Assembly: GCA_964578935.1 (NCBI GenBank)
Contig: CAZOEW010000018.1
Span: 6,340 to 30,339 of the forward strand
Length of the DNA: 24,000 bases
Source: an uncultured Desulfobacterales bacterium
Lineage (GTDB): Bacteria > Desulfobacterota > Desulfobacteria > Desulfobacterales > SURF-7
Direction of reading: 5' to 3'
Positions 22,731-23,708 of this stretch are shown one piece after another (the stretch's first letter is position 1; every line of letters begins with the position of its first letter). The notes below the pieces were generated by a model. That model was not told where the DNA came from. It made no database searches and saw only the letters and a list, made by a program, of their open reading frames with translations. Position numbers and translations under genes: made by a program.

Positions 22731-23708
22731 ATGATAGAATTCAATATTCAAAACTGGATTTCGATGGCCTCTTTTATGGGTGCCGGTATTGCCATGGGCT
22801 TCAGCGCCATCGGATCCGCAATCGGTGAAGGGTATACAGCTGCAGAGGCAACTACAGCAATCTCACGGAATCCGAAGTTATCGGATGAAATTTTAAAGAT
22901 GATGTTAATGGGCCAGGCCATAGCGGAATCTGCAGCGATTTTTGGTCTGGTTATCGCGATGATGCTTCTTTTTACCAAATTTCCCCATATCTCCTGGCTT
23001 ACAGTAAGCGTTTTAATCGCTGCAGGATTTTCCATGGGTCTCGGGGCTATCGGATCGGGAGTGGGATCCGGTTTGGCTTCGGCTTTAGCCTGTAAAGGAC
23101 TGGCAAGACAGCCTGGAGCAAAAAGTACTCTTCAGGCAAACATGTTGATCGGTTCCAGCATTGCTCAAACACCGGCAATTTTTTCTCTGGTAACCGCACT
23201 TATTTTGATTTTTACGGATTTTTCAGCCCGTCCGATCTCGCCTACATGGGCGGCGATTCTAGGAGCCGGATTTGCTTCGGGTTTTGGAGCTATCGGTTCC
23301 GGACTTGGAGACGGTCTTGTTGCCGGAGCATGCTGTGAAGGCACGGCGCGTCAGCCCATGGCCGCAAAAGCGGTATTAAGTGTCATGTTTTTGGGAATGG
23401 CGGTTACCGAGACAACAGCCATTTACGGTCTGCTGGTCAGTTTCATTCTGATATTCAGAGAGTCTGCTGCAACAGAAGCCCTTGCACCGGCCATGGCGCT
23501 CCTTGGGGCGGGTCTTTGCATGGGTATTGGTGCCATCGGACCCGGTATTGGAGAGGGATTTACCGCCCGCAGCGCGGTAGGCGGGATTGCAAAAAATTCA
23601 GAAGCGAGAACGGAACTCACACGTGTAATGCTTGTGGGTCAGGCGGTTTCGGAGTCAACCGGTATCTATTCACTGGTTATCGCGCTGGTTTTGATTTTTG
23701 TTGTCTAA
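22731..23708 (+). CDS. Fused F-type ATP synthase c subunit with four tandem hairpin modules in one polypeptide (about 8 TM helices)
   Basis: The ATG directly follows the atpB TAA (22728-22730). The 325 aa are uninterrupted and contain four ~70-aa units, each with a G-rich helix 1 (GAG..MG.GAIG.G.G.G), a polar loop and helix 2 (G.A..E/Q....(F/Y).L.......F). The units begin at aa 12, 92, 173 and 254 and are joined by 10-11-aa linkers. Confidence 0.85.
   Translation: MIEFNIQNWISMASFMGAGIAMGFSAIGSAIGEGYTAAEATTAISRNPKLSDEILKMMLMGQAIAESAAIFGLVIAMMLLFTKFPHISWLTVSVLIAAGFSMGLGAIGSGVGSGLASALACKGLARQPGAKSTLQANMLIGSSIAQTPAIFSLVTALILIFTDFSARPISPTWAAILGAGFASGFGAIGSGLGDGLVAGACCEGTARQPMAAKAVLSVMFLGMAVTETTAIYGLLVSFILIFRESAATEALAPAMALLGAGLCMGIGAIGPGIGEGFTARSAVGGIAKNSEARTELTRVMLVGQAVSESTGIYSLVIALVLIFVV
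22764..22973 (+). repeat. c-subunit hairpin module 1 (aa 12-81)
   Basis: Sequence: MASFMGAGIAMGFSAIGSAIGEGYTAAEATTAISRNPKLSDEILKMMLMGQAIAESAAIFGLVIAMMLLF. The helix-1 residue is E33 (22827-22829) and the helix-2 carboxylate is E66 (22926-22928). Confidence 0.8.
23004..23213 (+). repeat. c-subunit hairpin module 2 (aa 92-161); the carboxylate is replaced by Gln
   Basis: Sequence: VSVLIAAGFSMGLGAIGSGVGSGLASALACKGLARQPGAKSTLQANMLIGSSIAQTPAIFSLVTALILIF. The helix-1 residue is S113 (23067-23069). The position aligned with the ion-binding Glu is Q146 (CAA, 23166-23168). Confidence 0.8.
23247..23456 (+). repeat. c-subunit hairpin module 3 (aa 173-242)
   Basis: Sequence: WAAILGAGFASGFGAIGSGLGDGLVAGACCEGTARQPMAAKAVLSVMFLGMAVTETTAIYGLLVSFILIF. 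The helix-1 residue is D194 (23310-23312) and the helix-2 carboxylate is E227 (23409-23411). Confidence 0.8.
23490..23699 (+). repeat. c-subunit hairpin module 4 (aa 254-323)
   Basis: Sequence: AMALLGAGLCMGIGAIGPGIGEGFTARSAVGGIAKNSEARTELTRVMLVGQAVSESTGIYSLVIALVLIF. The helix-1 residue is E275 (23553-23555) and the helix-2 carboxylate is E308 (23652-23654). By my hand alignment, 32 of 70 positions are identical to module 1. Confidence 0.8.

What the first reader, a model, noticed from the sequence alone, without database searches (positions are those of the whole stretch)
23004..23213. Hairpin 2 of the fused c subunit lacks the ion-binding carboxylate (Glu to Gln), leaving 3 sites per 4 hairpins
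The helix-2 positions that align with the essential carboxylate are E66 (GAA 22926-22928), Q146 (CAA 23166-23168), E227 (GAG 23409-23411) and E308 (GAG 23652-23654). Module 2 also has Ser (S113) where the other modules have an acidic residue in helix 1, and it reads SIAQTPAIF with a Pro two residues after the Gln. A rotor hairpin without a carboxylate cannot carry an ion. This is the same principle as in V-type proteolipids and A. woodii c1, where one hairpin of the duplicated subunit carries no binding site (there also via a Gln, as I recall). The consequence is fewer ions translocated per rotation, a lower ion-to-ATP ratio. That favours ATP-driven pumping or changes the bioenergetic gearing, which matters for an energy-limited anaerobe.
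Basis: partly seen in the sequence, partly recalled or inferred. Interest (0 to 1): 0.7.

Follow-up and report, generated by a model that had tools for sequence, protein, structure and literature searches.

The report
Four-hairpin ATP synthase rotor subunit, one dead site
A sulfate-reducer-type bacterium encodes an F-type ATP synthase rotor subunit made of four fused hairpins. The second hairpin carries a strictly conserved glutamine where the ion-carrying glutamate should be, so it probably lowers the number of ions needed per ATP, as in Acetobacterium woodii but in a larger form I could not find described.

Summary
ORF 22731-23708 (325 aa) is four fused c-subunit hairpins. The carboxylate positions read E66, Q146, E227 and E308, and the helix-1 partners read E33, S113, D194 and E275.

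This is not decay. Q146, T147, P148 and F151 are invariant in 87 of 87 four-hairpin homologues from Desulfobacterales. Hairpin 2 is as conserved as the other hairpins, with dN/dS of about 0.15.

The gene sits in an Fo operon: atpZ, atpI, a, c1, c2, then b' and b in relatives. It abuts the stop codon of the a gene. An 82-aa single-hairpin c2 with a full two-carboxylate Na+ motif follows.

The closest solved structure is A. woodii c1, whose second hairpin also has Gln. The hairpin duplications are independent, so the Gln is convergent.

The family also has 3-, 5- and 6-hairpin versions, some with a single carboxylate.

The most likely reading is a hybrid c1/c2 rotor with one silent site. That site is built from Q146 and S113 plus S67, A68 and F71 of hairpin 1.

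Ring stoichiometry, coupling ion and physiological direction are untested.

I rate it a new variant of a known kind, interest about 0.6.

The parts
21395..21673 (+). AtpZ-like small membrane protein (ATPase_gene1). First gene of the Fo operon. The true start may be the ATG at about 21410, by comparison with L001.
   Evidence: PF09527, E 9e-16. The same gene is in the same place in relatives.
21660..22043 (+). AtpI, the assembly factor for c-rings.
   Evidence: PF03899, E 9e-8. The position is conserved in relatives.
22056..22730 (+). Fo a subunit, 224 aa, with the conserved stator Arg in 'SISFRLFGNIMGG'. Its stop codon TAA (22728-22730) directly abuts the c1 start codon.
   Evidence: PF00119, E 8e-51. 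Sequence. Junction.
22731..23708 (+). c1: a fused c subunit of four hairpins (8 transmembrane helices), 325 aa.
   Evidence: Four PF00137 matches. AlphaFold2 pLDDT 95.2 and pTM 0.90 with eight helices. The best solved relative is A. woodii c1, 4bem_J.
22731..22985 (+). Hairpin 1 (residues 1-85): E33 and E66. Its S67/A68/F71 (codons 22929-22943) are inferred to line the silent site of hairpin 2.
   Evidence: E66 and F71 87/87, A68 86/87. for the neighbour rule.
22986..23228 (+). Hairpin 2 (residues 86-166): the hairpin without a carboxylate. It has S113 in helix 1 and I144-A-Q146-T147-P148-A-I-F151 in helix 2.
   Evidence: Q/T/P/F invariant 87/87. dN/dS 0.15. Helix break at residue 146 in the model.
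23166..23168 (+). CAA codon for Q146, at the position of the ion-binding Glu.
23067..23069 (+). TCC codon for S113, the helix-1 position where the other hairpins have Glu or Asp.
   Evidence: In homologues this position is Ser, Ala or Gly and never acidic.
23229..23471 (+). Hairpin 3 (residues 167-247): D194 and E227, T228, T229, Y232. The carboxylate pair is kept here but lost together (G/S194 with Q227) in 74 of 87 homologues.
   Evidence: perfect covariation, 13 D/E against 74 G|S/Q. (the EQEE state is basal).
23472..23705 (+). Hairpin 4 (residues 248-325): E275 and V306, E308, S309, T310, Y313. This is the full two-carboxylate Na+ motif. It is 69% identical to c2.
   Evidence: (alignment to F. 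nucleatum 3zk1).
23810..23815 (+). AGGAGG Shine-Dalgarno sequence, 8 nt upstream of the c2 start codon.
   Evidence: A (A)GGAGG is present 6-9 nt upstream of c2 in all six loci examined.
23824..24000 (+). c2: a single-hairpin c subunit, with its first 59 codons in the window (it runs off the end). Helix 1 reads 'GPGVGEGM'. Full-length relatives are 82 aa and end '...VGQAVSESTGIYSLVIALLLLFVV'.

Best explanation
The 325-aa protein is the 'c1' component of a hybrid rotor ring of a probably Na+-coupled F1Fo ATP synthase in a Desulfobacterales bacterium. I infer that one copy, or a few, of the four-hairpin c1 assembles with several copies of the single-hairpin c2 into one ring.

Three hairpins carry the helix-2 carboxylate (E66, E227, E308), each with an acidic helix-1 partner. 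That matches the two-carboxylate Na+ motif of Fusobacterium nucleatum.

Hairpin 2 has Gln146 and Ser113 instead. Together with the degenerate S67/A68/F71 of hairpin 1, these form a neutral pocket that cannot load or release an ion. When this pocket passes the stator Arg of subunit a, the ring advances one hairpin step without moving an ion. One full turn (3 ATP) therefore costs one ion fewer than the number of hairpins.

What is shown: the sequence facts, the conservation, the operon and the fold. What is inferred: incorporation into the ring, the ratio of c1 to c2, Na+ as the coupling ion and the effect on gearing.
For: - Four PF00137 hairpins sit in an F-type Fo operon of atpZ, atpI, a, c1 and c2, followed by b' and b in relatives.
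- Q146 aligns with Glu65 of solved c subunits.
- Q146, T147, P148 and F151 are invariant 87/87. Hairpin 2 is as conserved as the others, with mean pairwise identity 0.74 against 0.75-0.79. dN/dS is 0.15 against 0.07-0.15.
- The closest solved chain, by sequence and by fold, is A. woodii c1. It has Gln at the same place and is known to sit in a c1:c2/3 = 1:9 ring with 10 Na+ sites (PMC9171764; PMC7911925).
- c2 is nearly identical across loci with 3-, 4-, 5- and 6-hairpin c1 genes and carries E...ESTGIY.
- The c1 start abuts the stop of the single-copy a subunit, with no strong ribosome-binding site. c2 has its own AGGAGG. This fits low c1 and high c2 expression.
- The helix-1 and helix-2 carboxylates are kept or lost together in hairpin 3 (13 D/E against 74 G|S/Q).
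- Tyr70 of a hairpin tracks the carboxylate of the next hairpin (odds 14, p 5e-6). This explains F71 in hairpin 1, and the same Tyr-to-Phe change in hairpin 1 of A. woodii c1.
- The AlphaFold2 model is confident (pLDDT 95) and shows four hairpins.
Against: - There are no biochemical data for any member of this family.
- Ring composition and size are unknown. A ring made of c1 only, or of c2 only, is not excluded.
- F1 genes are not in the window or next to the Fo operon in relatives, so the partner F1 is assumed.
- The site around E227/D194 is lined by T147/P148/F151 and may itself be impaired, so the number of working sites could be 2 rather than 3.
- The association test is not corrected for shared ancestry.
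- From memory and not checked here: rings lacking c1 were reported to be functional in A. woodii, so the physiological benefit of c1 is unclear even in the model system.
Confidence: 0.72

Rival explanations
1. c1 is mainly an assembly or size-setting element. A covalently linked arc of four hairpins, made next to subunit a, would nucleate ring assembly or fix the ring's curvature or stoichiometry. On this reading the silent hairpin is a by-product, or an adaptation for contacting a, AtpI, gamma or epsilon, rather than a gearing device. This overlaps with the best explanation, since c1 would still be in the ring.
For: - c1 is translationally coupled to the single-copy a subunit in six loci.
- AtpI and AtpZ assembly factors are in the operon.
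- The QTP motif and the helix break at residue 146 are strictly conserved. That suggests a structural role beyond simply losing a charge.
- The number of hairpins varies from 3 to 6 while c2 and a stay constant.
Against: - The acidic pairs in the other hairpins are under strict conservation, so c1 also works in ion transport.
- No direct evidence exists for a nucleating role.
Confidence: 0.15
2. All-c1 rotor: the ring is built only from c1 (for example three copies, giving 12 hairpins and 9 carboxylates). c2 would then belong to an alternative ring made under other conditions, so the cell switches between two gear ratios.
For: - There are two c genes with separate translation signals and a 115-nt spacer holding predicted stem-loops.
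- Archaeal enzymes use rings made only of multi-hairpin subunits (PMC2359735; PMC9171764).
Against: - The only characterised F-type case with the same gene order (a, c1, c2) makes a mixed ring.
- c2 is conserved next to every c1 class.
- Five- and six-hairpin relatives with one carboxylate would give rings with very few sites if made of c1 alone.
Confidence: 0.08
3. Hairpin 2 is a decaying, functionally irrelevant duplicate, or Q146 is a sequencing or assembly error (GAA read as CAA).
For: Q and E differ by a single base (CAA against GAA).
Against: - Q146, T147, P148 and F151 are invariant in 87/87 homologues from independent assemblies.
- dN/dS is 0.15, with synonymous sites near saturation.
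- Hairpin 2 is no less conserved than the other hairpins.
Confidence: 0.01
4. The Gln146 pocket is not silent. It would bind a cation or water without a carboxylate, or the site would be complemented by another residue, so all four hairpins would transport.
For: - Gln and Thr side chains can coordinate Na+.
- In I. tartaricus, Gln32 is a Na+ ligand (context).
Against: - No acidic residue lies in the membrane part of module 2.
- The helix-1 partner is Ser, Ala or Gly and never polar-acidic.
- The neighbouring ligands are degenerate (A68, F71).
- In A. woodii the equivalent Gln site is counted as lacking Na+ binding.
- The accepted mechanism needs a carboxylate to pair with the stator Arg.
Confidence: 0.04

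Closest known systems
Acetobacterium woodii (and Clostridium aceticum) F1Fo c1 subunit of the F/V-hybrid c-ring (PDB 4BEM chain J)
   Same: - It is a multi-hairpin c gene placed directly after atpB and before a single-hairpin c gene in an F-type operon.
- One hairpin has Gln-Thr in place of Glu-Thr/Ser at the ion site.
- The hairpin before the Gln hairpin has Phe for Tyr70.
- It is the best match by sequence (E 7.5e-25) and by fold (TM 0.82, rmsd 1.8 Å).
- The binding motif is of the Na+ type.
   Different: - It has two hairpins with one site, against four hairpins with three carboxylates here.
- The duplications are independent. A. woodii c1 hairpins are 71-73% identical to their own c2 and only 37-48% identical to the window's hairpins.
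- The window's silent hairpin has a conserved Pro two residues after the Gln and Ser in helix 1. A. woodii keeps Gln in helix 1 and Thr-Thr after the Gln.
- The active sites here use two carboxylates rather than Gln plus Glu.
- In relatives, b' and b follow c2 and the F1 genes are elsewhere.
Fusobacterium nucleatum c11 ring with the two-carboxylate Na+ motif (PDB 3ZK1; PMC3692424)
   Same: Hairpin 4 and c2 have the full motif of Glu32, Val63, Glu65, Ser66, Thr67 and Tyr70. Hairpins 1 and 3 have the acidic pair.
   Different: - F. nucleatum has single-hairpin subunits that are all identical and all active.
- Here hairpin 1 lacks Thr67 and Tyr70 (A68, F71), hairpin 3 uses Asp in helix 1, and hairpin 2 lacks both carboxylates.
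V-type and A-type proteolipids with duplicated or triplicated hairpins (eukaryotic Vo c, E. hirae NtpK, E. callanderi A1Ao c, M. jannaschii three-hairpin c, M. kandleri 13-hairpin c)
   Same: - Hairpins are fused into one polypeptide, and in some the carboxylate is lost from part of the hairpins, giving fewer ions per turn.
- They are structural neighbours after 4BEM.
   Different: - They belong to V/A-type operons with a large a/I subunit. Here the neighbours are F-type a (PF00119) and b (PF00430).
- Sequence is closest to F-type c.
- I found no described F-type case with more than two hairpins.

Membership tests
F-type ATP synthase c subunit (Pfam PF00137, AtpE) | Helical hairpin with a Gly-rich helix 1 and a polar cytoplasmic loop (R-Q/N-P) | tested here: met
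   There are four PF00137 matches. The loops read SRNP, ARQP, ARQP and AKNS. The model has eight helices at pLDDT 95.
F-type ATP synthase c subunit (Pfam PF00137, AtpE) | Essential Glu/Asp in the middle of helix 2 of every hairpin | tested here: not met
   Present in hairpins 1, 3 and 4 (E66, E227, E308). Hairpin 2 has Q146.
F-type ATP synthase c subunit (Pfam PF00137, AtpE) | Encoded next to F-type a and b subunits | tested here: met
   The a subunit (PF00119) is immediately upstream. b' and b (PF00430) lie downstream in relatives. The window ends before them.
A. woodii-type hybrid-rotor c1 | Multi-hairpin c gene between atpB and a single-hairpin c gene in an F-type operon | tested here: met
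A. woodii-type hybrid-rotor c1 | A hairpin whose carboxylate is replaced by Gln | tested here: met
   Q146 here. A. woodii c1 reads 'AVAQTTGIY', described as the motif 'Q....QT'.
A. woodii-type hybrid-rotor c1 | Two hairpins (4 transmembrane helices, about 18 kDa) with one site | tested here: not met
   Four hairpins, 325 aa and three carboxylates.
A. woodii-type hybrid-rotor c1 | Common descent with A. woodii c1 (the same duplication event) | tested here: not met
   A. woodii c1 hairpins are 71-73% identical to their own c2 and only 37-48% identical to the window's hairpins. The best HMMER pairing is not colinear.
A. woodii-type hybrid-rotor c1 | Incorporated with c2 into one mixed ring (1:9 in A. 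woodii) | not testable with these tools
   Only indirect evidence is available: c1 is coupled to the a gene, and c2 has its own strong ribosome-binding site.
Two-carboxylate Na+-binding c subunit (F. nucleatum type) | Glu32 plus Glu65, Ser66, Thr67 and Tyr70 | tested here: inconclusive
   - Complete in hairpin 4 and in c2.
- Hairpin 1 has E, E and S but Ala and Phe.
- Hairpin 3 has D, E, T, T and Y.
- Hairpin 2 has none of the carboxylates.
- Ion specificity was not measured.
V/A-type proteolipid (Vo c, NtpK, AtpK) | Part of a V/A-type operon and closest in sequence to V/A-type c | tested here: not met
   The operon is F-type. The top sequence hits in the PDB are F-type, and V-type c scores only E of about 1e-7.

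The most novel reading that the evidence does not exclude
Desulfobacterales carry a previously undescribed graded series of F-type 'c1' rotor subunits. The series runs from 3 to 6 fused hairpins with carboxylate patterns EQE, EQEE, EQQE, EQQQQ and EQQQQQ. Each is paired with the same single-hairpin c2.

These subunits would set the ion/ATP ratio of a Na+ ATP synthase anywhere from about 3.3 down to about 2. The window's EQEE protein would represent the ancestral, least reduced four-hairpin state.

If the 5- and 6-hairpin forms really sit in the ring, the rotor must pass up to five consecutive silent hairpins across the stator. Current stepping models of Fo do not readily explain that.
Probability: 0.4. 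Interest if true: 0.85.

Novelty: new variant of a known kind. Interest (0 to 1): 0.6.

Why it matters
The number of ion-carrying sites per rotor turn fixes how many ions an ATP costs. For anaerobes living near the thermodynamic limit, such as sulfate reducers and syntrophs, that number decides whether a given membrane potential can make ATP at all.

Until now the only F-type enzyme known to tune this by silencing a hairpin was the A. woodii type, with two hairpins and one silent site. This locus shows the same trick evolved independently and on a larger scale in an abundant marine and sediment lineage. The silent-hairpin signature (Q-T-P...F) is strictly conserved, and family members keep between one and three carboxylates.

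This gives a natural series for two tests. One is how many silent steps an Fo motor tolerates. The other is whether gear ratio tracks ecology.

Tried and rejected
- Exact-sequence look-up of the window protein found nothing on record. I used relatives instead.
So I could not test whether the same genomes hold a second ATP synthase, or where the F1 genes lie.
- Eight literature searches found no paper describing 3-6-hairpin F-type c subunits in Desulfobacterales.
- The two most relevant papers are not held, so prior description cannot be excluded. [quoted passage not shown] 2014, the A. woodii ring structure.
- Decay or sequencing error is rejected.
- A register shift is rejected. No membrane Asp or Glu lies in module 2, and the alignments are gapless.
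- V-type membership is rejected.
- Common origin with A. woodii c1 is rejected.
- The promoter and terminator scan of 21000-24000 gave counts no higher than shuffled sequence, so it was not used.
- Cluster look-ups gave few organism names.
- The c1-c2 spacer has predicted stem-loops, but its length (29-129 nt) and sequence are not conserved. I claim no RNA element there.
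Full report
**1. What is in the sequence**

The ORF at 22731-23708 (+) encodes 325 aa. Pfam ATP-synt_C (PF00137) matches it four times, with E 7e-61.

- E66 is GAA at 22926-22928.
- Q146 is CAA at 23166-23168.
- E227 is GAG at 23409-23411.
- E308 is GAG at 23652-23654.
- S113 is TCC at 23067-23069.
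- The helix-1 counterparts in the other modules are E33, D194 and E275.

The four modules align with each other and with the I. tartaricus c subunit practically without gaps, and Q146 falls on Glu65. HMMER alignments against real PDB sequences give the same register. The only acidic residue in module 2 is D163, at the periplasmic end.

**2. Gene context**

Upstream, on the same strand, lie three genes:
- An AtpZ-like gene (PF09527) at 21395-21673.
- atpI (PF03899) at 21660-22043.
- The a subunit (PF00119, 224 aa, with the stator Arg in 'SISFRLFGN') at 22056-22730.

The c1 ATG follows the a-subunit stop codon with no gap. A 115-nt spacer follows c1, then an AGGAGG at 23810-23815. A second, single-hairpin c gene starts at 23824 and runs off the window.

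In the closest genome locus the operon continues with b' and b and then ends. That locus is L001, from the Desulfobacteraceae MAG SURF_7, and its c1 is 80% identical. No F1 genes are adjacent.

The rest of the window is ordinary chromosome: era, engB, hisG, hisI, a class A penicillin-binding protein, RNase III, a multihaem cytochrome and a sirohaem synthase domain protein.

**3. Is the Gln selected?**

The best 120 database homologues are all multi-hairpin c proteins, and the named ones come from Desulfobacterales MAGs. Their carboxylate patterns are:

| Hairpins | Pattern | Count |
|---|---|---|
| 4 | EQQE | 76 |
| 4 | EQEE (window included) | 13 |
| 5 | EQQQQ | 16 |
| 5 | EQQQE | 1 |
| 6 | EQQQQQ | 13 |
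| 6 | EQQQQE | 1 |
| 6 | QQEQQQ | 1 |

In 87 aligned four-hairpin proteins, Q146, T147, P148 and F151 are invariant, as are E66 and E308. Hairpin 2 is as conserved as the others, with mean pairwise identity 0.74 against 0.75-0.79.

Window against L001 gives dN/dS of 0.15 for hairpin 2 and 0.07-0.15 for the others, with synonymous sites near saturation. The Gln hairpin is therefore under purifying selection. Decay and sequencing error are excluded.

**4. The state of hairpin 3**

D194 and E227 occur together in 13 sequences. G/S194 and Q227 occur together in 74. No mixed case exists.

On a neighbour-joining tree with midpoint root, the EQEE proteins form two basal groups, and a single Glu-to-Gln change explains the EQQE clade. 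The rooting is uncertain. On this evidence the window carries the less reduced, probably ancestral, four-hairpin form.

**5. Which residues make the silent site?**

In solved Na+ rings the site lies between neighbouring subunits. Glu32/Gln32 and Glu65 come from one subunit. The Val63 carbonyl and Ser66 come from the adjacent one. Ser66 and Tyr70 donate hydrogen bonds to Glu65, and Thr67 holds a water molecule (PMC3692424).

I tested 150 cluster representatives of multi-hairpin c proteins:
- Tyr at position 70 of a hairpin is associated with a carboxylate in the next hairpin. The counts are 22 of 24 against 124 of 285, with odds 14 and p 5e-6.
- Tyr70 is not associated with a carboxylate in the previous hairpin (odds 1.1).
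- A polar residue at position 32 goes with the carboxylate of the same hairpin (odds 8, p 4e-17).

The test is not corrected for shared ancestry. It does agree with A. woodii c1, where the hairpin before the Gln hairpin reads ...ETSGIF (Phe) and the Gln hairpin keeps Tyr.

I therefore infer that the silent pocket consists of Q146 and S113 plus S67/A68/F71 of hairpin 1. Hairpin 2's own T147/P148/F151 line the E227/D194 site. That site lacks the Tyr hydrogen bond and the Thr-held water. So 'three sites' is an upper bound, and only E66 and E308 have a full set of ligands.

**6. Structure**

AlphaFold2 with the 87-sequence alignment gives pLDDT 95.2 and pTM 0.90, with eight helices in four hairpins. 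The only outer helix with a break at the site is in hairpin 2. There the helices run 128-145 and 147-161, and the break falls at Q146 just before P148.

Foldseek against the PDB puts A. woodii c1 (4bem_J) first, with E 4.6e-7, TM 0.82, rmsd 1.8 Å and 34% identity. V-type proteolipids follow. No solved chain has four hairpins.

**7. Relation to A. woodii c1**

The principle and even the residue are the same. A. woodii and C. aceticum c1 have 'Q....QT' in the dead hairpin (PMC7911925). The A. woodii ring has nine single-hairpin subunits and one c1, with one Na+ site fewer than it has hairpins (PMC9171764).

The duplications are independent, however. A. woodii c1 hairpins are 71-73% identical to A. 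woodii c2 and 37-48% identical to the window's hairpins. The window's hairpins are only 38-47% identical to one another, except that hairpin 4 is 69% identical to c2. The Glu-to-Gln replacement is therefore convergent.

**8. Ring composition (inferred)**

Six loci have c1 genes of 3, 4, 5 or 6 hairpins, and all share the same operon. All have an 82-aa c2 that is nearly identical across them and carries E...VSESTGIY.

In all six, the c1 start lies 0-4 nt after the stop of the single-copy a subunit, with no strong Shine-Dalgarno sequence. c2 has (A)GGAGG 6-9 nt upstream. This fits few c1 and many c2 copies per complex, as in A. woodii.

If the ring had 11 hairpins, as in the closest solved Na+ rings, one c1 plus seven c2 would give 10 carboxylates. 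That is 3.3 ions per ATP instead of 3.7. This number is an illustration, not a result.

**9. Function and direction**

A silent hairpin lowers the ions per turn. An A1Ao enzyme with a V-type c subunit and the A. woodii hybrid enzyme both synthesise ATP at about 90 mV. The physiological reading stays open.

Na+ coupling is suggested by the two-carboxylate/Ser/Thr/Tyr motif in hairpin 4 and in c2. It has not been measured.

**10. Novelty**

Known cases are the two-hairpin F-type c1 and archaeal c subunits of 2, 3 and 13 hairpins. Eight full-text searches found no description of F-type c subunits with 3-6 hairpins in Desulfobacterales. Databases call them simply 'ATP synthase F0 subunit C'.

Two key papers could not be read, so earlier mention cannot be ruled out. 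I rate it a new variant of a known kind.

**11. Verdict**

- The most likely mechanism is a hybrid c1/c2 rotor with one conserved silent site, at confidence about 0.7.
- Interest is 0.6. Most of the interest comes from the family-wide pattern rather than from the single substitution.

Noticed in passing
L003 6001-7218 (5 hairpins, P0050); L004/L005 6001-7455 (6 hairpins, P0003); L008 6001-6738 (3 hairpins, P0124): Relatives in the same operon have c1 genes of 3, 5 or 6 hairpins, with patterns EQE, EQQQQ and EQQQQQ. The 5- and 6-hairpin forms keep a single carboxylate, and the inner hairpins are near-identical 'CQTPAIF' repeats. If these sit in the ring, up to five consecutive silent hairpins must pass the stator.
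   Followed up: partly
L006 7270-8966 (P0187) and L007: There is a distant family of four-hairpin c proteins, about 30% identical, with many 50%-identity clusters. Its pattern is E-Q-E-D/E, again with Gln in hairpin 2. In an 830-kb contig it lies after a 243-aa a subunit, with no c2 and no recognisable b subunit. A glycosyltransferase and unannotated ~190-aa proteins follow. The lineage and the partner complex are unknown.
   Followed up: partly
P0126 (1139 aa), P0142 (968 aa), P0193 (1042 aa), P0185 (784 aa), P0213 (631 aa): There are very long single-chain c proteins with 8-15 hairpins, nearly all carrying Glu. P0126 and its cluster are annotated as hypothetical proteins of Asgard archaea (Promethearchaeota, Hodarchaeota). 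They are presumably monomeric rotors like that of M. kandleri.
   Followed up: no
window 23709-23823: The 115-nt spacer between c1 and c2 has predicted stem-loops (-20 kcal/mol). Examples are ccggattatccgg and gaaacggtttc. Relatives have spacers of 29-129 nt with no conserved sequence. The spacer could modulate the c1:c2 expression ratio.
   Followed up: partly
window 23589-23600 (residues 287-290 of c1): The cytoplasmic loop of hairpin 4 reads A-K-N-S in the window, where relatives have A-R-N and the other hairpins have R-Q/N-P. The loop Arg that is otherwise nearly invariant is Lys here.
   Followed up: no
window 21395-21673 and 21660-22043: Both an AtpZ-like gene (PF09527) and atpI precede the a subunit, and they overlap by 14 nt. 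The annotated TTG start of the first is probably too early, since relatives start at the equivalent of M6.
   Followed up: no
multi-hairpin c proteins generally: Tyr at position 70 of a hairpin predicts a carboxylate in the following hairpin, not in its own or the preceding one. This gives a sequence-only way to orient which neighbour completes each ion site in fused c subunits.
   Followed up: partly
window 45-1349 and 2233-3906: A multihaem cytochrome c (PF13435, PF14522) and a ChaN-like haem-binding protein lie at the far end of the window. This fits a Desulfobacterales origin. They are unrelated to the finding.
   Followed up: no
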